Positions 1,984 to 16,030 of a DNA stretch of 64,000 bases are shown here, piece by piece (the first letter of the stretch is position 1; each line of letters opens with the position of its first letter). The position numbers and the translations under genes are program-made. The notes beneath the pieces were generated by a model. That model did no database searches, was not told the DNA's origin, and was given only the letters and a program-made list of their open reading frames with translations. The DNA is taken from IMG/VR virus record IMGVR_UViG_3300032030_000057, positions 15,509 through 79,508 of that record. The stretch is one strand, 5' to 3'. Source of the DNA: a virus. Lineage: Duplodnaviria > Caudoviricetes.

Positions 1984-2011
1984 AATGTAATTGTTTTCGT
2001 GAATTCGGCTG

Positions 2012-2019
2012 CAAATCTA
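2012..2019 (-). promoter_or_regulatory. Bacteroidota -7 promoter element (TAGATTTG) for the leftward operon
   Basis: Matches TAnnTTTG, 28 nt upstream of ATG 1983. Confidence 0.7.
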
Positions 2020-2097
2020 AGCAAAATCTATTATAATCCGTATAAAACGAAAGCAATTTTAACTTCTCACGCGCAAAATTAACATCCTTTTATAAAT

Positions 2098-2181
2098 AGT
2101 ATACTTATTACGTAATATGTATTCTTTACCATAAGAGTATACCAGTAATAATAGTATTCTTATTAATAAGTATACTCATTA
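2098..2181. repeat. Iteron-like 13-mer direct repeats AGTATWCTYATTA
   Basis: AGTATACTTATTA 2098, AGTATTCTTATTA 2153, AGTATACTCATTA 2169, weaker copy at 2136. Confidence 0.6.
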
Positions 2182-2261
2182 CACGCGCGTGCGTACGCGT
2201 ATAGAACCAAAAATTCAAATACTATGACTGGGAATTATACCGCAAAATCACCAAATTGGCC

Positions 2262-2352
2262 GTTTTTAAGGCCGTAGGACGCGTTTTATGCCTCAGGTGG
2301 ATAACTATAAGGCCCAAACAAAAATAAATGCTCTACGGGCTCTAAAATGCGT
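2262..2352 (+). repeat. Imperfect long hairpin element A with central GGTGGATAACTATA
   Basis: Arms ttttaaggccgtagg / ctctacgggctctaaaa; homologous to inverted element B at 36241-36330. Confidence 0.6.
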
Positions 2353-2619
2353 TTTTTTTAAAATCGAAAATTTAAAAATTTAAAAATCAAAAATTTGAGT
2401 GTAGGCACCATGCTCTTTGGCGTCGCGCACACCTCCCCCTCCCCTTATATGTTTTTGTGTTTTTGATAGGCTCAAAATATGTCTTTTTTCGCTCGTTTAT
2501 ATGAACGTTTGAGAAAGTAAAAATACGTTTTTTCGCTTTCCTTCGCTGATAGTGAAAAACGCGAAGACATAAACCAAACCACCAAACGACAAAAACGGGC
2601 TCAAAAGATTGCATTTGCA

Positions 2620-2900
2620 TTTTGCCAAATTTGCCAATATTATATTATTTCATTCTTTATCTTATTTATATCTTATTTTTTAGTATTTATTTTATCCTGA
2701 ATATTATATTAATTTTCTTTTATTCTTTTATTATCTCTATACTGATAATATTATATTTATTCTATCCTATAATATTAACAACCTATATATTATAACAATC
2801 ATAAAAAAAATAACAAAACAATATATACATATAGTATATAAAAAGAAAAGTATATAAAAGAAAAAGAATTGTATAAAAACCTTCAATAATTAATTATATA
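2620..2900. other. Extremely AT-rich low-complexity non-coding block (possible unwinding element or packaging/terminus region)
   Basis: Runs of TTTATT then ATATA/AAAAG; no credible ORF. Confidence 0.55.
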
Positions 2901-3004
2901 TAATAATGTACACGTATAATTTTTGCCTATTTTGTAGAATATTCTTTAAAAATCGATAAAATACGGCATTTAGTCTATATTTTGAGCCCAAACGTATATT
3001 TTGT

Positions 3005-3035
3005 TTTGTAGTATTTAAATTTCGTCGTAACTTTG
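3005..3035 (+). promoter_or_regulatory. Bacteroidota -33/-7 promoter for the rightward early transcript
   Basis: TTTG 3005-3008, 19-nt spacer, TAACTTTG 3028-3035. Confidence 0.8.
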
Positions 3036-3067
3036 CACCAGAAAAATTAAAAAATAGTATTAACGAA

Positions 3068-3089
3068 ACAGACAGACAGACAGACAGAC
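3068..3089 (+). repeat. (ACAG)5 microsatellite
   Basis: acagacagacagacagacagac. Confidence 0.9.
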
Positions 3090-3094
3090 TTTTT

Positions 3095-3425
3095 CCGACC
3101 TGCTGCGAAATGCAGCGAAAAGGCAGGGGTTTAAATAGGAATGAAAACCCAGCAACAGAAGCAAAAAGCAACTACCTACAGTGTGGACCACACCACCAGC
3201 AATGTCAAAGGCGTATTAACTTATCAAAATAGATAAGCGAGGCGAAAAGGCAGAAGGCAAGTAACACTAAATTCCACGGAATGCGGTGCGGAATACTGAA
3301 AAGCAAAAGCGGTTACACCCAGTAACTATGGGGATGCAAAGTAAGTTAACTAAAACCTTCGGGGAAAGACAAACGAAATACTTTGCAAGGTATTGCAAGG
3401 CAGCGAGATTATCTCAGCGAAGAAG
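3095..3425 (+). ncRNA. Candidate structured non-coding RNA / long 5' leader
   Basis: No credible ORF; serial hairpins with A-rich linkers downstream of a strong promoter. Confidence 0.45.
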
Positions 3426-3439
3426 GCAAAGAAATTTAA

Positions 3440-3455
3440 TGTTTCACATGAAACC
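3440..3455. promoter_or_regulatory. parS-like palindrome TGTTTCACATGAAACC
   Basis: 14/16 match to the widespread parS consensus TGTTTCACGTGAAACA. Confidence 0.65.
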
Positions 3456-3589
3456 AACCAAATAACAAAACTTTTGCGAAATGCAAATTATAAGTTTTGT
3501 TTTATTTGCGTTTTTAATACTTTTCCAAAGTTACGAAACGAAAATAATGATTTGAAACAAATCTTTGGCGGATTTCTGGAGGAGGCTGA

Positions 3590-3605
3590 TGTTTCATGTG
3601 AAACA
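3590..3605. promoter_or_regulatory. parS-like palindrome TGTTTCATGTGAAACA
   Basis: 15/16 match to parS consensus; inverted copy of the 3440 site. Confidence 0.7.
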
Positions 3606-3710
3606 TTCTTTTGGTAAGGTAGGCAAATAATCGGTGTACCTGTAGCGAAAACAGGCTACCTACAATTTTTATTAATAAAATTTAGTATTAATCTTTAAAA
3701 ACTTACAATT

Positions 3711-4109
3711 ATGAAGAATTTTGATTTTATTGAGAGTGCAAATGTAGTGTTGAAGAATGTAGGCGCAGACTTGCGCGGTGGTAACAAGGAATACACAAGC
3801 ATCAGCCGCGTATTGAAGGATATCCAGAGAAGGGATATGTTACGCGCTGGTTACGGCAAGGTATTCGAGGCATTAGGTTTGGAGGCTGGAGGCATTACGC
3901 CCGCAGATTTCTTTGCAGCTATACCAGAAGGAATGCACGGCACAGACAAGAAGGGCAACGACTTTGTCGGACTGTGGGGCTGGAAGGTGTTGGAGCGCGA
4001 CGCAAACGGCAAGGTGACAAAGCGCGAAGCCGTATTGCGCAAGGTTACGTCGTGGAGCCCGAACAAGTTGTTCAAGGTCTGGGCTCAAGCAAACGAGTTG
4101 AATAAGTAG
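3711..4109 (+). CDS. First early protein, unknown function (132 aa)
   Basis: AT-rich start context ending aattATG; strongly biased codon usage. Confidence 0.85.
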   Translation: MKNFDFIESANVVLKNVGADLRGGNKEYTSISRVLKDIQRRDMLRAGYGKVFEALGLEAGGITPADFFAAIPEGMHGTDKKGNDFVGLWGWKVLERDANGKVTKREAVLRKVTSWSPNKLFKVWAQANELNK

Positions 4110-4163
4110 TGTTGCAGCTCGACTATGCGAGGGTAAATAGGCGTTAGGCATAGTGCGTTATTA

Positions 4164-4201
4164 GGGCATGGTGTATCCTTTTGGGTGCATTATGCCCTTT
4201 T
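4164..4201 (+). terminator. Probable intrinsic terminator
   Basis: gggcatggtgtatcc-tttt-gggtgcattatgccc stem followed by TTTT. Confidence 0.55.
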
Positions 4202-4229
4202 AGGTCGTATTAATCTAAAAGCAGGAATT

Positions 4230-4424
4230 ATGACTAAAAAAGTAGATTTTAAATTGCGTTGTGCTTACATAGCACAAATGTACATCCTTTTAGCAGAGCG
4301 TGCGCTAATAGATGTAAAGTATTGTTACGCATTACAAGGACTTTTGTACGATGACGAAAAAGATTTGCAGCGGTACGACGTATTCGCAAGCAAAGCAAAA
4401 AAGTTCAACGAGTTAGCAAAATAG
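4230..4424 (+). CDS. Small early hypothetical protein (start revised to MTKKVDF)
   Basis: aattATG context at 4230. Confidence 0.65.
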   Translation: MTKKVDFKLRCAYIAQMYILLAERALIDVKYCYALQGLLYDDEKDLQRYDVFASKAKKFNELAK

Positions 4425-4435
4425 CATTATTGTAA

Positions 4436-4505
4436 GCAGGCGCAAAGCAGGTGCGTTCACTCTCACCATGCCCGCCCGCCAGCGTCATATAGTATTAACT
4501 TTAAA
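4436..4505 (+). repeat. Early-region hairpin repeat copy H1
   Basis: cgTTCACTCtcaccatGCCCGCCCGCC then AGTATTAACTTTAAAC. Confidence 0.6.
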
Positions 4506-4516
4506 CAATTGTAGAG

Positions 4517-4669
4517 ATGAGAGCAAAAATCAGTTGGAAAATCGGCAACTGGGCCGTTTATGGTGTTGGTTGCGTATTGTTGGCTCAAGGATTGAGCGAG
4601 CGTTTTGCGAGAGAGTGTGTTAACGACCTCCGTTCGCGTGGTCAAGTAGTAACTATGACGGAAGAATAA
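4517..4669 (+). CDS. Small hypothetical protein (50 aa, below ORF-track cutoff)
   Basis: MRAKISWKIGNW...; follows H1, abuts 4672. Confidence 0.6.
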   Translation: MRAKISWKIGNWAVYGVGCVLLAQGLSERFARECVNDLRSRGQVVTMTEE

Positions 4670-4671
4670 TT

Positions 4672-4854
4672 ATGTTGTTCGAGATTATATTGTCGGTGTT
4701 AGTCGTCGCTAATGTTGGCTTTGTATTGTTGTACGATGCTTTGTCGTACGACTGCAAGGTGGATGCGTATTGCAAGGATGCGGATGCGTTTTGCAAGGAT
4801 GCGGATGACTTTTGCGACAAGTCTGGCAATATCAAATGGAGAGTTAGGATATGA
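4672..4854 (+). CDS. Small single-TM protein with CKDADxF repeats
   Basis: Hydrophobic N-terminus; 21-nt tandem repeat at ~4754-4820. Confidence 0.65.
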   Translation: MLFEIILSVLVVANVGFVLLYDALSYDCKVDAYCKDADAFCKDADDFCDKSGNIKWRVRI

Positions 4855-5018
4855 GAAACAATTTCGAGATTTTGGTATGCGTGCTCGTTGTCGTCGGCTC
4901 TTTGGCTACGATGGGCGGTTTGTGGTTCTGTGACCTTCGCGTGTTTGTCGCTGGTCTCATCGTTGGCGGCTTGTTGCCTATATTGTTGGCTGGTATTGTA
5001 TGCAATATGAAGTATTAA
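4851..5018 (+). CDS. Small two-TM membrane protein (55 aa)
   Basis: MRNNFEILVCVLVVVG...; ATGA overlap with upstream gene. Confidence 0.6.
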   Translation: MRNNFEILVCVLVVVGSLATMGGLWFCDLRVFVAGLIVGGLLPILLAGIVCNMKY

Positions 5019-5022
5019 TGTT

Positions 5023-5172
5023 ATGAAGAATTTTCGTTCTTTTGATGCGTTGATGGCTCAGCTTGACCGCATCTACAAGTTGTATCTGAAGGGATATGGG
5101 AGCTCTAAACTGATAGAGCGTGCGGATAACTTTATGTTCCGTCGCTTTGGTAACGTCGGATTAATGGTGTGA
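5023..5172 (+). CDS. Small hypothetical protein (49 aa)
   Basis: MKNFRSFDALMAQLDRIY...; tight packing. Confidence 0.6.
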   Translation: MKNFRSFDALMAQLDRIYKLYLKGYGSSKLIERADNFMFRRFGNVGLMV

Positions 5173-5176
5173 TATT

Positions 5177-5350
5177 ATGTTTGCAATGAAAGTTACTAAG
5201 CTTGTATTGTCTATGATTGACAACAAGCAGGTTGTTGTGCCTATTGTGTTTGCTTGTGCATTCATTCAGTTCTGCGAGCACGCACACATCCCTTGTTATG
5301 GTGGTGCGTTGAGCAGTGATTTTACTGAGCAGATTTTCTACACGGATTAA
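5177..5350 (+). CDS. Small hypothetical protein (57 aa)
   Basis: Fills gap between 5172 and 5363 on the coding strand. Confidence 0.5.
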   Translation: MFAMKVTKLVLSMIDNKQVVVPIVFACAFIQFCEHAHIPCYGGALSSDFTEQIFYTD

Positions 5351-5362
5351 GATGGCTGAAAT

Positions 5363-5767
5363 ATGAGACAAAAGATAAAAGTATATCAGGTGCAAGTTGT
5401 TCGCTTTGATAAAAAAGGAAACTTTATCCCTAAAGATTTGCGCAATCACAATGTTGTCTGTATAGGTACTGTAATAACACCAAAGGGCAAGCGTGCTTTT
5501 ACTGAGGAAACTATCTGGGATTTGTTCAACTGGACTTGCTGGGGTTGGGGTAAGCTAACAGGGAAAAGTTGGATATACGGCATACGCAACGGCATAAGAC
5601 GTGACGGATTTCGAATGTTTCCAACTACACGCGCACAAGGTTACTGCAATTCCGACATATTCTTCTTTATGGATGGAAAGTGGTATGCAGCAGCGCATTG
5701 TGGTTTTAAGTGCTTCGATAGCAAAGAGGATGCTATTGAGTTTTGTAAAGAAAATACACGCAACTAA
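5363..5767 (+). CDS. Early hypothetical protein
   Basis: 134-aa ORF in co-directional array. Confidence 0.8.
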   Translation: MRQKIKVYQVQVVRFDKKGNFIPKDLRNHNVVCIGTVITPKGKRAFTEETIWDLFNWTCWGWGKLTGKSWIYGIRNGIRRDGFRMFPTTRAQGYCNSDIFFFMDGKWYAAAHCGFKCFDSKEDAIEFCKENTRN

Positions 5768-5784
5768 AAGCAGGAAGACTGAAT

Positions 5785-6087
5785 ATGGAAAGAGTAAGAT
5801 GCGAAGAAATAGTGCTTGACTCGTATGCAGTTGGCACTACGGATATAATGGACTATGCGGATGCACATCCTAACGAATATTTCGACTATACGGATGTACG
5901 CAGCAACAAGACAAACTTTGGCAGGCTCATGGTCAGCGAGCACGAACCATCAAATGTGGAATTAGAGTGCGACAGACGTGGATTGACTGAGTGGCATGAA
6001 TTGTACAATGGTTGGCAGCGCACAAGCAACTGTCTTGGTGTGTGGGTGTGCAGGAAGAACGGAAGATACATTATTATAACAGATTAA
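5785..6087 (+). CDS. Early hypothetical protein
   Basis: 100-aa ORF in array. Confidence 0.8.
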   Translation: MERVRCEEIVLDSYAVGTTDIMDYADAHPNEYFDYTDVRSNKTNFGRLMVSEHEPSNVELECDRRGLTEWHELYNGWQRTSNCLGVWVCRKNGRYIIITD

Positions 6088-6099
6088 ATAGTTGAAGTT

Positions 6100-6357
6100 A
6101 TGAAAAAGAAGTTAGCAGAAACAATCGTTAAGCATTGGAACGAGTATTTCGCAGGTAGTACGGATGCGACGAAGACCAAAGCGGTGTTATATTGTGCACG
6201 CAAGGGTTATTATGATGTAGAGATTATCCCAGACGGAGATAAGAATGACGGTCTCGTATTCCACCATATTGAAGAACTGAACTCGGTATGTAAGTTTTTC
6301 AGAGTTAATTGCTATGTATCCGTTTGGAAAGGCAAGGCTATTGGTAATATGTTTTAA
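6100..6357 (+). CDS. Early hypothetical protein
   Basis: 85-aa ORF in array. Confidence 0.8.
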   Translation: MKKKLAETIVKHWNEYFAGSTDATKTKAVLYCARKGYYDVEIIPDGDKNDGLVFHHIEELNSVCKFFRVNCYVSVWKGKAIGNMF

Positions 6358-6390
6358 TAACAATATGTTGGACGAATTAAAGAAGATGTT

Positions 6391-6942
6391 ATGAACAAGC
6401 GAGAGTTGACAAAGATGTTCCCGTGGCTTACATCGGGAAAGTTGGACTACGAGTTGAAACAAGTCCGCAAGACCTACAAGACTGAGCGCGGATTCTTGAA
6501 CCACCTCAAGTTGGAGAATGACAAGAATGCTGACAAGTTCGGTATGCCAGACGTCAAGCGTATCTATATCGACATCACTTGGAAGAAGTCGCGTACATGG
6601 GGCAACTGTCCGCACGCAGAGTGGGAATGTTGGTTCAAGGACGGTTCGTACAGACACGGCAAGACAAGTGCAAGCGGCTGGGGCTATGACAAACACAGTA
6701 CAGTAGTCGCAAACGTGATGAATGCGGTTGCGAAGGGTATGGCGTGGCGAAAGCGTAACTCCCGCAAGGTCGCTCCGTATGGTCTGGAGCACGTCGGCAA
6801 GGGTAAGTCGAAGGAATGGCCACCATATTTCGAGGGCGGTATCGGCATCAGTTGCTATCCGCGTATCGTAGAATATCTCGGTGGTAAGATGGAGAGCCAT
6901 GCAGGGAAGGTTTGGGATGAGCACATCATCACGTTCAAGTAA
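6391..6942 (+). CDS. Early hypothetical protein
   Basis: 183-aa ORF; KTSASGWGYDKHST motif. Confidence 0.85.
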   Translation: MNKRELTKMFPWLTSGKLDYELKQVRKTYKTERGFLNHLKLENDKNADKFGMPDVKRIYIDITWKKSRTWGNCPHAEWECWFKDGSYRHGKTSASGWGYDKHSTVVANVMNAVAKGMAWRKRNSRKVAPYGLEHVGKGKSKEWPPYFEGGIGISCYPRIVEYLGGKMESHAGKVWDEHIITFK

Positions 6943-6950
6943 ACTCTATC

Positions 6951-7027
6951 GGGCAGGGTGGCGAATCACTATCGTCGCGCCCGCCTGCCGTCATCAGACA
7001 AACATCATTTAGTATTAACTTTTAAAC
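6951..7027 (+). repeat. Early-region hairpin repeat copy H2
   Basis: ggcagg-gtggcga[ATCACTA]tcgtcgc-gcccg-cctgcc, then gacaaacat and AGTATTAACTTTTAAAC. Confidence 0.7.
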
Positions 7028-7046
7028 AAACAAGGAGAAAAGAATT

Positions 7047-8849
7047 ATGGCAAGTAATGGAACTATCGCACACAGATTTGCGAACAAGGATTACAATTTC
7101 GAGAAGGGTTTGAAGGGTTCATCGACACACATCGACGGACGTAACTACTACTCATATTCGACCGTATTCGGCCAGTGGGTAGACGAAAAGGTCTGCTTAG
7201 TATTCCACGGAGATACATCTATCACGTCGCACAAACATTTCCTTTGGGGTAGCGACTTCCCTAAAGACGTGATACTCCTCCCATACGACGACGGAGGACG
7301 TGGTGGTTATTATGGCTCATGGCATGGTTGTGACCTCCTCGGTTGGTCTGGAGAGTGGAATTTCACCAAGCGCGTTGAACTCATAGACTACTACGTCAAC
7401 AAAATATACAATTCTCTCGAAGCCATCAACGGTGGCACAAAGAAGAATCTGGAAAACAATGCCAGTCGCACGATTGAGTCGTATTGGGGCTACGTCATGA
7501 AACTATGTGCCATGTATCGTGATACGACAATCAACAAGTGGCTGAGGGTTAAGCGTACCGACCTTGACGGTGAGTGGAAACGCAAGAAGAAACTTGTAAA
7601 GGAACTGGATGCTCAGAATATGGATGTGCAGTCTTTGGTTGACATCGTGTTCGGTGAGGGTACGTGGAAGGCTTACTACGACTACTGCGCACGTTACCGC
7701 AAGGCTGCTGACAGTCGTGCAAAGATTGAAACGTTGTGCAAGCGTATTGGCATTGCAAGTCCTTATGAGAAGTGGGGTGGTTACGATGTACTTGACCACG
7801 AAATGAGTGCCGACGACATCCGCAAGCTGACTGCAAAGGAGCGTGTTGACCTGCACTTCCGAGCACTTGCATTCAAGGAATACAAGGAGCACGAGAAAGA
7901 GCGCGAGGAGAAGTACAACAAGAATTTCCGCAACGCATACAAGTGGATTGTAGACTCTGAGCCGAAACAGAAATCTTGGGGTGGTGGCTACGAGAAAGAT
8001 GTCCACAACAACTGCATCAACAAGGACAGCGGTGTTGTATATGAGTGCAGCGGCAGATACATCTTCGGATTCTACTGGTGCAAAACCAGTGTGTCGTTCG
8101 ACTACGATTCGTTCCGTAAGAGCGAGGACAAGGAGCAGTGGATTGCAGACTTCTATGCAATGTGCAAGGAAGTTGCCGACAACCGCAAGGCAATCGGAAT
8201 CCTTAGACGTATCAAGGCACATGTCAAGGATAAGGTACACTATTTGGACGATGACGTGTACCTCAACGATGATTACCTGCGAGAGAACACGAGTCCGAGT
8301 GAGTACATCCTCTGTTCGCACTTTATCTACTTGCAGGACAAGCACTATGCTGACGAGGAGGCTCGCAGACGTGCGGCTGAAATTGCACGCAAGCAGAGAG
8401 AGGAAGAGGAGCGTAAGGAGAAAGAGTTACAGGAGCGCATCAAGCAGGAGCAGATTGATGCCTGCATCGAGCGTGGCGTTGACGGCTATCGTGACCTGTG
8501 GAGACTGCACTATATGGATGTGTACGGAGCAGAAAGCCAGTCGTGTTCGGATGATTTCTTCTATGGCGGTAACGTCCTGCTTCGCTTCTCCATGAACAAG
8601 GACAAGATTGAATCCTCAAAGCACATCCGTCTGACGATTCCAACATGCAAGGCTATGTGGAAGATTGTCAGCAAGTGGCACAACGACCCGAAGTCATTCA
8701 AGGAGATGAATATCAAGACGCTCGACGGCAGCTACACCATTAGCAGCTATCGCAACGACATCCTGACCGCTGGTTGTCACGACATCGCGTACGCTGAAAT
8801 GGAGCACATGTACAACGAGATTGTTAAACTTGAGAACGAGGCAGCATGA
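7047..8849 (+). CDS. Large early protein of unknown function (600 aa)
   Basis: Long ORF with charged helical linker; C-terminal ILTAGCHDI motif. Confidence 0.9.
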   Translation: MASNGTIAHRFANKDYNFEKGLKGSSTHIDGRNYYSYSTVFGQWVDEKVCLVFHGDTSITSHKHFLWGSDFPKDVILLPYDDGGRGGYYGSWHGCDLLGWSGEWNFTKRVELIDYYVNKIYNSLEAINGGTKKNLENNASRTIESYWGYVMKLCAMYRDTTINKWLRVKRTDLDGEWKRKKKLVKELDAQNMDVQSLVDIVFGEGTWKAYYDYCARYRKAADSRAKIETLCKRIGIASPYEKWGGYDVLDHEMSADDIRKLTAKERVDLHFRALAFKEYKEHEKEREEKYNKNFRNAYKWIVDSEPKQKSWGGGYEKDVHNNCINKDSGVVYECSGRYIFGFYWCKTSVSFDYDSFRKSEDKEQWIADFYAMCKEVADNRKAIGILRRIKAHVKDKVHYLDDDVYLNDDYLRENTSPSEYILCSHFIYLQDKHYADEEARRRAAEIARKQREEEERKEKELQERIKQEQIDACIERGVDGYRDLWRLHYMDVYGAESQSCSDDFFYGGNVLLRFSMNKDKIESSKHIRLTIPTCKAMWKIVSKWHNDPKSFKEMNIKTLDGSYTISSYRNDILTAGCHDIAYAEMEHMYNEIVKLENEAA

Positions 8850-15220: not shown

Positions 15221-16030
15221 ATGAGTGTTAAAAAATTCGTCGGATGGAGGCGCGTCAGTACAGCGAAACAACGCGGCTCACACTTAGGATTGGAGGCTCA
15301 GAAGTCTATTATTGATTTCTTTGTCGAAAAAGAGAAAGGCGAACTGATTGCAGACTATGAGGAATGTCATAGCGGAACTGACCTTGCAGGTTGTACAGAA
15401 CTAAAGAAAGCAAAGGAACACTGCAAGAAAACAGGCGCAACCCTAATCATCGCAAAGACTGACAGATGCCGTGATACAATCGAGGCTCTTCAGTTGTACG
15501 AGGAAATGAATGGGCGTATTTATTTCTGCGATTTGCCTCACACAGACAAGTTTACTTTAACCTTGTTCTTCAGCCTTGCAGAGCGAGAGGCCATGATTGT
15601 AAGTCTAAGAACAAAGCAGGCACTCGCAGCATTAAAGGCTCGTGGAGATGTAAAGCTTGGAGCATCTAACCAAAAGTATCGCGAGACGTACGACAACAAG
15701 TCCGACGAAGAAAAGGTCTGTATTGCCCAGAAAAGAGGCAGGACTAAGACAGGAAACTATATCGCATCAAGAGATGTGCAGGCGTTCATCAAGGCTCTGC
15801 GTGCAACGTTTACAGAGGCAACGCAAGGAGAACCTACCGAATGGACTTGGAACTGCATCAACACCAAGAACGGGCCACGTCAGCGTGTCCTCGGAATGAT
15901 GAAGAACTTCCAAGACCTAGACGGAACTTTGTTCAGAGGGTGGAATTTCACCGACCTGAACTCCACTAAGCTGCAGGTGAAACTTGCAAATCAGATTTCA
16001 TGCCTGAGGCGTAGTGTAAAAGCATTATAA
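15221..16030 (+). CDS. Serine recombinase (resolvase/invertase family)
   Basis: GWRRVSTAKQ catalytic Ser motif, SG, LIIAKTDRCR, AEREAMIVSLRTKQALAALKARG. Confidence 0.9.
   Translation: MSVKKFVGWRRVSTAKQRGSHLGLEAQKSIIDFFVEKEKGELIADYEECHSGTDLAGCTELKKAKEHCKKTGATLIIAKTDRCRDTIEALQLYEEMNGRIYFCDLPHTDKFTLTLFFSLAEREAMIVSLRTKQALAALKARGDVKLGASNQKYRETYDNKSDEEKVCIAQKRGRTKTGNYIASRDVQAFIKALRATFTEATQGEPTEWTWNCINTKNGPRQRVLGMMKNFQDLDGTLFRGWNFTDLNSTKLQVKLANQISCLRRSVKAL

What the first reader, a model, noticed from the sequence alone, without database searches (positions are those of the whole stretch)
3440..3605. Two parS-like sites without a visible ParA/ParB: possible hijack of host partitioning
Seen: TGTTTCACATGAAACC and TGTTTCATGTGAAACA, 150 bp apart, forming a 17-bp inverted repeat and matching the widespread chromosomal parS consensus at 14/16 and 15/16, in the non-coding control region. 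Established: chromosomal ParB binds parS, spreads and loads SMC. No parB/parA is in this window, but a resolvase is. Inference: the phage borrows host ParB/SMC to segregate as an extrachromosomal (plasmid-like/carrier) element, position its DNA, or titrate ParB to disrupt host segregation.
Basis: partly seen in the sequence, partly recalled or inferred. Interest (0 to 1): 0.8.

Follow-up and report, generated by a model that had tools for sequence, protein, structure and literature searches.

The report
Host-type parS sites on Bacteroidales phage
A 79.5-kb gut phage of Bacteroidales with no partition genes carries two slightly mutated copies of the bacterial chromosome "centromere" (parS); its relatives keep perfect copies at the same place, so the lineage probably docks the host's ParB protein onto phage DNA, as Bacillus phage phi29 is known to do.

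Summary
TGTTTCACATGAAACC (3440-3455) and TGTTTCATGTGAAACA (3590-3605) form a perfect 17-nt inverted repeat. They are the only parS-like sites in the complete 79,508-bp phage genome, where 0.03 are expected by chance.

The decisive evidence comes from relatives. In 10 of 11 related phages, found through the adjacent 132-aa gene, the 600 nt upstream of that gene hold 1-3 canonical parS sites (TGTTTCACGTGAAACA, 0-1 mismatch). That is 21 such sites there and none in the other ~51 kb of flanks.

Bacteroides and Phocaeicola chromosomes use the same motif and encode ParA and ParB. The phage has no ParB, no ParA and no tyrosine integrase.

So these are host-type parS sites. In this genome both have lost the central CpG (CG to CA and CG to TG, complementary changes), so ParB binding may be weakened; this is untested.

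The sites lie about 0.6-0.8 kb from the AT-rich block and GC-skew minimum. They sit inside a leader that an RNA-library contig covers at about ten times the depth of the ORF contig, so an added RNA-stem role cannot be excluded.

The closest precedent is phi29, which has five host parS sites bound by host Spo0J. Earlier notes of this scan report orphan parS in other phages. Verdict: a new member of a known kind, of moderate interest.

The parts
3440..3455 (.). parS-like site 1, TGTTTCACATGAAACC: left half-site perfect, centre CG changed to CA, last base C
   Evidence: The homologous position in relatives L248, L249, L250 and L384 reads TGTTTCACGTGAAACC.
3590..3605 (.). parS-like site 2, TGTTTCATGTGAAACA: right half-site perfect, centre CG changed to TG
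   Evidence: The homologous position in L248, L249 and L384 is the perfect TGTTTCACGTGAAACA.
3438..3607 (+). 17-nt perfect inverted repeat (arms 3438-3454 and 3591-3607) enclosing a conserved 136-nt segment; as RNA it would form a 17-bp closing helix
   Evidence: 100% complementary; the RNA minimum-free-energy fold uses the helix (-49 kcal/mol, z -4.26).
3466..3515 (+). Conserved hairpin (3466-3499, GAAAT loop) followed by a T-rich run (3500-3515), lying between the two sites; terminator-like
   Evidence: Alignments A2 and A3 show compensatory changes in the inner and outer stems across five phages.
3526..3533 (-). TAACTTTG on the minus strand, a perfect Bacteroidota -7 box pointing left, between the sites
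   Evidence: Read directly from the sequence. The surrounding block is mostly conserved in A2 and A3, though the box varies in L248 and L384. Promoter function is inferred only.
3005..3035 (+). Consensus Bacteroidota promoter (TTTG, 19-nt spacer, TAACTTTG) that would drive the leader holding both sites
   Evidence: the motif occurs 13 times in the window against 2.8 expected.
3097..3621 (+). Leader stretch covered by one RNA-library contig at about ten times the depth of the downstream ORF contig
   Evidence: X2 record 1 covers 3097-3621 at depth 37.9 with 0 differences, against 3.9 for the contig over 3702-3954.
2620..2960 (.). Very AT-rich block with AATATTATATT-type repeats; the cumulative GC-skew minimum of the genome is at 2828; candidate origin or unwinding region
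   Evidence: A similar AT-rich block sits in the divergent region of Bacteroides phage C3_41T2LP.
3711..4109 (+). First rightward gene, 132 aa, conserved in 127 database proteins; confident predicted fold with no known match; used as the anchor to find relatives
   Evidence: No significant Pfam or PHROG hit.
15221..16030 (+). Small serine recombinase (resolvase type, 269 aa), the only recombinase found in the genome
   Evidence: PF00239, E 1e-12. No PF00589 tyrosine integrase.

Best explanation
The two palindromes are host-chromosome-type parS sites, the loading sites of the ParB CTP clamp. A lineage of Bacteroidales gut and rumen phages keeps 1-3 of them in the leader of its first rightward operon, beside the AT-rich putative origin, while encoding no ParA or ParB. 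The likely mechanism is that host ParB dimers recognise the sites on phage DNA, close as CTP clamps and spread over the origin and early-promoter region. This would build a partition-type complex that the host ParA (and SMC) machinery can act on. That could position or segregate phage genomes that persist without integration, or modulate early transcription and replication. In this genome both sites carry a transition at the central CpG, giving CA in site 1 and TG in site 2. Each site therefore keeps one perfect half-site (TGTTTCAC), and ParB affinity is probably lower than in sibling phages. Shown: the motif identity, its conservation and confinement in relatives, the host motif and host ParAB, and the absence of phage ParAB. 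Inferred: ParB binding and every downstream effect.
For: 1. The sites are real and far above chance, with 0.03 expected in the genome.
2. Eleven non-redundant relatives share the adjacent 132-aa gene at 52-91% identity. Ten of them have 1-3 parS sites in the 600 nt upstream of it. That is 21 sites with 0-1 mismatch there (18 plus 3 in L391), and 0 such sites in 51,251 bp of other flanking DNA of ten of them.
3. Number and position of the sites vary (-65 to -503) while the 16-mer stays the same. Immediate flanks differ. This is the pattern of a protein-binding site.
4. Variation follows known parS tolerance. L254 has TGTTCCACGTGGAACA twice, changed at the consensus N position. L391 has CGTTTCACGTGAAACA, the same variant as the chromosomal site in B. 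finegoldii.
5. The host is probably a member of Bacteroidales. Bacteroidota-type promoters are enriched. The terminase is 54% identical to that of Bacteroides phage C3_41T2LP. The DNA is found in sheep-gut runs.
6. Five Bacteroides/Phocaeicola genomes each hold 1-2 near-perfect parS sites and a parA-parB operon. Of 301 Bacteroidales genomes, 106 carry the exact 14-mer core, and nearly all listed matches have the CG centre.
7. The phage has no ParB_N and no AAA_31. A Bacteroides ParB profile finds nothing in six frames with filters off (best E 4.4).
8. The sites lie 0.6-0.8 kb from the GC-skew minimum and AT-rich block.
9. There is a precedent: phi29 has five parS sites used through host Spo0J (PMC2731898). 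I found four perfect TGTTTCACGTGGAACA in NC_011048.
10. The pattern is general. Forty-four unrelated IMG/VR contigs carry parS pairs. Of the eight that are at least 90% complete, seven lack ParB_N and all eight lack AAA_31.
Against: No binding data exist. The central CG is nearly invariant in host chromosomal sites, and both sites here have lost it, so ParB may bind poorly or not load. The actual host and its ParB are unknown. The isolated relative C3_41T2LP has an analogous divergent region but no parS, so the sites are not essential to this phage type. One 52%-identity relative also lacks them. The sites lie inside a leader covered by an RNA-library contig, and the two changes are complementary, which also fits selection on an RNA helix. 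Whole genomes of the Logan and ENA relatives could not be searched for ParB.
Confidence: 0.6

Rival explanations
1. Relic sites. The lineage uses parS, but in this genome both sites have been inactivated by CpG transitions. The cause would be mutational decay, or selection against a CACGTG/ACGT-specific restriction system or against ParB loading. They would no longer recruit ParB.
For: Both changes hit the one dinucleotide that is nearly invariant in host sites. CACGTG is under-represented in the genome, 3 observed against 10.4 expected. The genome shows extreme restriction-site avoidance elsewhere: 0 GATC against 235 expected, and 0 CCGG against 95. C3_41T2LP and L257/L258 do without parS.
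Against: All other 14-15 positions of both sites are intact, although the flanks have diverged from relatives. Each site keeps a perfect half-site. The same CA/TG-centre variant occurs as arrays in unrelated viral contigs: 7 copies in L213, 3 in L238, and pairs in L229 and L232. It also takes the place of one member of a conserved chromosomal parS pair in genome G054. These points suggest the variant can be functional. Three CACGTG remain in the genome, so avoidance is not absolute.
Confidence: 0.2
2. RNA element. In this phage the two arms act mainly in RNA, as a 17-bp helix that closes the 3' domain of the non-coding leader RNA and perhaps defines or protects its 3' end. The parS identity would be ancestral or secondary.
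For: An RNA-library contig spans 3097-3621, with both arms on one contig, at about ten times the depth of the ORF contig, and stops 14 nt after the second arm. The minimum-free-energy fold uses the helix (z -4.26). The two centre changes turn a G-C pair into an A-U pair, which is compensatory. L250 shows a second complementary change at the flanking pair, A/T to T/A. The neighbouring hairpins show real covariation, so the leader is a structured RNA.
Against: Any two copies of a palindrome are complementary to each other, so the helix is largely a by-product. Given that both CpGs underwent transitions, complementarity is expected half the time. Relatives have one site (L255, L382) or three (L249, L253, L254, L259, L391), with spacings of about 50 to 200 nt. 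That is incompatible with a conserved closing helix. A structural helix would not be held to the exact parS 16-mer across diverged and unrelated phages. L384 breaks the flanking pair. Contigs cannot show RNA ends, and DNA carry-over in the library was not excluded.
Confidence: 0.12
3. Operators of a phage-encoded dimeric DNA-binding protein, for example the product of the adjacent 132-aa gene, autoregulating the early operon.
For: The sites lie between the early promoter and the first gene. They always accompany that gene in the relatives sampled, although the relatives were found through that gene. The 132-aa protein is of unknown function.
Against: Exact identity to the bacterial parS 16-mer in many phages would be an unexplained coincidence. 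The 132-aa protein has a confident model (pLDDT 93), but no PDB match turned up: best Foldseek E-value 0.17, best VIA-align Z 2.6. L257/L258 have the gene but no sites. The 44 unrelated parS-pair contigs have no homologue of it, and only one of them shares any ORF with this phage. No ParB-like segment is found in six frames.
Confidence: 0.06

Closest known systems
Host-type parS sites of virulent Bacillus phage phi29 (and Nf), bound by host Spo0J/ParB (PMC2731898, which cites Meijer et al. 2005 for the evidence)
   Same: A phage without parA, parB or an integrase carries several copies of the host chromosomal parS. In phi29 I verified four perfect TGTTTCACGTGGAACA. Host ParB is the presumed reader, and the phage exploits host chromosome segregation.
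   Different: The host phylum is Bacteroidota, which does not sporulate, so spore entrapment cannot be the purpose. The sites are clustered in one origin-proximal leader rather than spread over the genome. The phage is a 79.5-kb genome with direct terminal repeats, not a 19-kb protein-primed podovirus. In this genome the sites have lost the central CpG.
Chromosomal parS/ParB-CTP partition complexes of bacteria (consensus TGTTTCAC-GTGAAACA, PMC7383237; Livny et al. 2007, from my own knowledge)
   Same: The same 16-bp palindrome, in few copies, close to a putative origin. Bacteroidales chromosomes carry 1-2 such sites and a parAB operon.
   Different: The sites are on a virus that supplies none of the proteins. 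They lie inside a transcribed leader. Here they are 14/16 and 15/16 matches with an asymmetric centre.
SGI1 integrative mobilisable element, which carries parS and hijacks the parABS system of its IncC helper plasmid (PMC10954446, title and abstract only)
   Same: A mobile element carries only the cis site and parasitises someone else's ParAB for its own stability.
   Different: The hijacked system there is a plasmid's, not the chromosome's. The element is an island, not a phage.
Phage-plasmid partition modules (P1 parABS, N15 sopAB; from my own knowledge)
   Same: Centromere-like repeats on a phage genome that persists extrachromosomally.
   Different: Those phages encode their own ParA and ParB with private parS sequences. 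This phage encodes neither.

Membership tests
Chromosomal-type parS (ParB/Spo0J loading site) | 16-bp palindrome matching TGTTNCACGTGAAACA within the range of natural sites | tested here: met
   The window sites match at 14/16 and 15/16. Sibling phages match at 16/16 or 15/16 at the same place. Natural Bacteroides sites also carry 1-2 mismatches. Caveat: the mismatches here fall on the central CG, which is nearly invariant in hosts.
Chromosomal-type parS (ParB/Spo0J loading site) | Specific binding and CTP-dependent clamp loading by ParB | not testable with these tools
   This needs EMSA, BLI, ChIP or a clamp-loading assay. No published data on a CA/TG-centre site were found in the papers read.
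Chromosomal-type parS (ParB/Spo0J loading site) | A cognate ParB (and ParA) is available in the cell and uses this motif | tested here: met
   Five Bacteroides/Phocaeicola genomes hold a parA-parB operon plus 1-2 near-perfect sites. Of 301 Bacteroidales genomes, 106 have the exact core. The true host species is not identified.
Chromosomal-type parS (ParB/Spo0J loading site) | Location close to the replication origin | tested here: inconclusive
   The sites lie 0.6-0.8 kb from the cumulative GC-skew minimum (window 2828) and the AT-rich block. Skew is confounded by the switch of gene orientation there. Only one DnaA-box-like site lies nearby.
Chromosomal-type parS (ParB/Spo0J loading site) | Conservation of the motif under divergence of its surroundings | tested here: met
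   Twenty-one sites with 0-1 mismatch lie in the upstream 600 nt of 10 of 11 relatives; none lies in 51 kb of other flanks of ten of them. Flanks and positions vary.
phi29-type orphan host parS on a phage | The phage encodes no ParA or ParB of its own | tested here: met
   No PF02195 and no PF13614 in the complete genome. A Bacteroides ParB profile searched against the six-frame translation gives best E 4.4.
phi29-type orphan host parS on a phage | Host ParB-dependent delivery of the phage genome into the forespore | not testable with these tools
   Bacteroidales do not sporulate (established knowledge), so if ParB is used the purpose must differ.
Phage-plasmid or plasmid ParABS partition cassette (P1, N15, F) | Own parA-parB operon next to a private centromere | tested here: not met
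   Searches find no such genes. The neighbouring ORFs have no significant Pfam or PHROG hit.
Repressor/operator pair of a phage | A phage-encoded DNA-binding protein that co-occurs with the sites | tested here: inconclusive
   No candidate was found. The adjacent 132-aa protein gave no PDB fold match and is absent from unrelated parS-bearing phages. Not every small ORF was examined.
Long-range RNA helix or intrinsic terminator | Pairing kept by compensatory changes across relatives, with both arms on one transcript | tested here: inconclusive
   Both arms lie on one RNA-library contig. Two complementary changes are seen (the centre in the window, the flank in L250), one broken pair in L384, and relatives have one or three sites.

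The most novel reading that the evidence does not exclude
Gut and rumen Bacteroidales phages that lack lysogeny genes keep origin-proximal host parS sites so that the host ParABS machinery partitions their genomes as episomes into daughter cells. This would be a carrier or pseudolysogenic state that helps explain the long-term coexistence of apparently virulent Bacteroidales phages with their hosts. In this genome the paired CpG changes would tune ParB loading while keeping an RNA helix of the leader RNA, making it a dual-use DNA and RNA element.
Probability: 0.22. Interest if true: 0.75.

Novelty: new member of a known kind. Interest (0 to 1): 0.5.

Why it matters
If host ParB is loaded on these phage genomes, it gives a concrete and testable handle on how non-integrating Bacteroidales phages are positioned, inherited or regulated in dividing gut bacteria. 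It would extend the phi29/Spo0J trick to a non-sporulating phylum. It would also suggest that capturing the universal parS is a recurrent viral strategy: 44 unrelated viral contigs carry parS pairs, and most complete ones have no ParAB. The natural CA/TG-centre variants offer a ready-made series for asking how much of the parS dyad ParB needs for CTP-dependent loading.

Tried and rejected
1. Megablast of 2000-8000 against GenBank phages: no match.
2. The search for related loci with the 132-aa protein in IMG/VR: none.
3. Exact 17-mer scan of IMG/VR: 120 or more loci, mostly single matches as expected by chance, and uninformative.
4. Eighty distant relatives found through the MazG-like pyrophosphatase: no parS within 6 kb on either side. 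The closest one (L123, 73% identity) ends before the region.
5. Site-1-plus-flank pattern in IMG/VR and in JGI metagenomes: 0 hits.
6. Whole-record ParB search of the Logan and ENA relatives was not possible because the records are not held.
7. Fold searches of the 132-aa protein (Foldseek on PDB, VIA-align wide) gave nothing usable.
8. Rfam at the gathering threshold and at E<=1 over 2900-4300 gave only the Pistol ribozyme and nothing over the leader.
9. DnaA-box scan: one box-like site in the intergenic region and no cluster, so an oriC-mimic reading was dropped.
10. Restriction avoidance as the cause of the centre changes: CACGTG is only moderately depleted (3 against 10.4), so it is not decisive.
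11. Literature searches for Bacteroides phage parS and for C3_41T2LP found nothing relevant.
12. Parts of 2900-4300 without contig cover in the laid runs are not interpreted.
13. Chance as the explanation was rejected.

Full report
**What is there**

The window is bases 15509-79508 of a 79,508-bp IMG/VR virus record. CheckV rates it 100% complete, and its first 146 bp recur at the end, a direct terminal repeat.

TGTTTCACATGAAACC lies at 3440-3455 and TGTTTCATGTGAAACA at 3590-3605. They match TGTTTCACGTGAAACA at 14/16 and 15/16. With their flanks they form a perfect 17-nt inverted repeat, 3438-3454 and 3591-3607.

No other site with up to 3 mismatches exists in the window, and none with up to 2 in the whole genome. 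From base composition, 0.03 sites with up to 2 mismatches are expected in the genome and 0.0007 in the intergenic region.

Contigs from other sheep-gut runs are identical across the sites, so the unusual centres are real.

**Setting**

The sites lie in a 1.7-kb divergent non-coding region, 1984-3710. On the left are leftward genes, including an SSB and a MazG-like pyrophosphatase. On the right is a rightward block of small early genes.

The region contains several features:
- A very AT-rich repeat block at 2620-2960. The cumulative GC-skew minimum of the genome falls inside it, at 2828.
- A consensus Bacteroidota promoter at 3005-3035. This motif occurs 13 times in the window against 2.8 expected.
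- A leader of about 670 nt before the first ORF, 3711-4109.

Between the two sites lies a hairpin (3466-3499) followed by a T-rich run. Its stems show compensatory changes in five related phages. A second covarying hairpin sits at 3639-3655.

**Host**

The terminase is 54% identical to that of Bacteroides phage C3_41T2LP, a plaque isolate on B. uniformis. The DNA is found in sheep-gut runs. The genome has no GATC (235 expected) and no CCGG (95 expected). A Bacteroidales host is the reasonable inference.

**Decisive comparison**

The adjacent 132-aa protein has 127 database homologues. I fetched the flanks of 11 non-redundant relatives at 52-91% identity.

Ten of the 11 carry one to three parS sites in the 600 nt upstream of the gene, most of them perfect TGTTTCACGTGAAACA. 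That gives 21 sites with 0-1 mismatch in those upstream stretches. None occurs in 51,251 bp of the remaining flanks of ten of them.

Site number (1-3) and position (-65 to -503) vary, and the immediate flanks differ, but the 16-mer stays the same.

Where the motif does vary, it follows known parS tolerance:
- L254 has TGTTCCACGTGGAACA twice. The change is at the N position of the consensus and is symmetric.
- L391 has CGTTTCACGTGAAACA, the very variant found on the B. finegoldii chromosome.

In the closest relatives (L248, L249, L250, L384) the two window sites align with sites that have a canonical CG centre. The window sites are therefore derived copies in which the central CpG became CpA (site 1) and TpG (site 2).

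**Host side**

Five Bacteroides/Phocaeicola genomes each have one or two near-perfect parS sites. Each also has a parA-parB operon, with ParA of about 255 aa and ParB of about 296 aa.

In 301 Bacteroidales genomes, 106 contain the exact 14-mer core. Almost all listed matches have the CG centre, often as a pair about 1.9 kb apart. In genome G054, one member of such a pair is the CA variant.

**Phage side**

The complete genome has no ParB_N, no AAA_31 ParA and no tyrosine integrase. It has one 269-aa serine recombinase.

A profile built from the Bacteroides ParB proteins finds nothing in the six-frame translation with all filters off (best E 4.4).

The adjacent 132-aa protein gives a confident model (pLDDT 93) with no match to a solved fold.

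**Generality and precedent**

A scan of IMG/VR for two parS cores 120-150 nt apart found 44 contigs unrelated to this phage. Only 5 of them encode ParB_N. Of the eight that are at least 90% complete, seven lack ParB_N and all eight lack AAA_31.

Several of these contigs carry arrays made only of the CA/TG-centre variant: seven copies in L213, three in L238, and pairs in L229 and L232.

The literature precedent is phi29. [quoted passage not shown] I verified four perfect B. subtilis-type sites in NC_011048.

SGI1 similarly hijacks the IncC plasmid ParABS through its own parS (PMC10954446).

I found no paper on parS in Bacteroides phages. Earlier notes of this scan report orphan host-type parS in other phages. 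They agree with this reading but are not independent evidence.

**Interpretation**

The identity with parS, its conservation and confinement in relatives, the host's use of the same motif, and the absence of any phage ParB together make "host-type parS read by host ParB" the best explanation for the lineage.

What ParB loading achieves is inferred only. Candidates are partition or positioning of non-integrated genomes, control of the early leader and origin, or titration of ParB.

For this particular genome the open question is whether the CpG-less sites still work.
- For function: everything else in the sites is intact, each keeps a perfect half-site, and the same variant forms arrays elsewhere.
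- Against function: the centre is nearly invariant in host chromosomes.

**RNA angle**

An RNA-library contig covers 3097-3621 at depth 37.9, against 3.9 for the contig over the ORF. Both arms lie on that one contig.

As RNA, the arms form a 17-bp helix in the minimum-free-energy fold. The two centre changes are complementary, turning a G-C pair into an A-U pair.

However, any two copies of a palindrome pair with each other, so the helix is largely a by-product. Given transitions at both CpGs, complementarity is a 50% expectation. Relatives with one or three sites at varied spacing rule out a conserved closing helix.

I therefore keep an RNA role as a minority rival, or as an added use in this genome.

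**Verdict**

This is a new member of the phi29-type class of orphan host parS on a phage. It is the first case I could find for Bacteroidales phages. Its twist is a degenerate centre and a location inside a leader covered by an RNA-library contig.

Noticed in passing
window 4117-4209 (+): Pistol self-cleaving ribozyme (Rfam RF02679, 44.5 bits against a gathering score of 34.5) directly after the stop codon of the 132-aa ORF. It would cut the early transcript between the first gene and the next genes.
   Followed up: no
window 3097-3621 (+): A sheep-gut metatranscriptome contig covers the non-coding leader at depth 37.9, against 3.9 for the contig over the ORF. This suggests an abundant RNA of at least 0.5 kb with no Rfam match and several covarying GAAA-loop hairpins. 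An (ACAG)n tract lies at about 3066-3090.
   Followed up: partly
whole genome (G000): Complete avoidance of GATC (0 against 235 expected) and CCGG (0 against 95 expected). CATATG, CTCGAG and AGCGCT are also strongly depleted. This is the signature of restriction avoidance.
   Followed up: no
window 16780, 21823, 25762, 31567 (+): Four consensus Bacteroidota promoters share an extended palindromic -33 element, TTTG(N)ATATTCAAA. This may be a class-specific promoter or operator motif.
   Followed up: no
window 3711-4109 (+): The conserved 132-aa first early protein (127 homologues) gives a confident AlphaFold model (pLDDT 93, four helices, a three-stranded sheet, then a C-terminal helix). It has no Pfam or PHROG family and no PDB fold match.
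   Followed up: partly
Bacteroidales genomes G062-G321 (for example G236:C112:575 and 2477): Many Bacteroidales chromosomes carry two canonical parS cores about 1.9 kb apart, a conserved pair. In G054 one member is the CA-centre variant.
   Followed up: no
L203-L246 (IMG/VR contigs): Forty-four unrelated viral contigs hold two or more parS cores 120-150 nt apart. Seven of the eight complete ones have neither ParB_N nor AAA_31. Three of the complete ones are 12-17 kb, two of them with inverted terminal repeats. L213 has seven copies of the CA/TG-centre variant.
   Followed up: partly
L247 43349-44658 (Bacteroides phage C3_41T2LP): The isolated relative has the same architecture: a divergent 1.3-kb non-coding region with an extremely AT-rich repeat block and a poly-C tract. 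It lacks parS and, in the first 50 kb searched, the 132-aa gene.
   Followed up: partly
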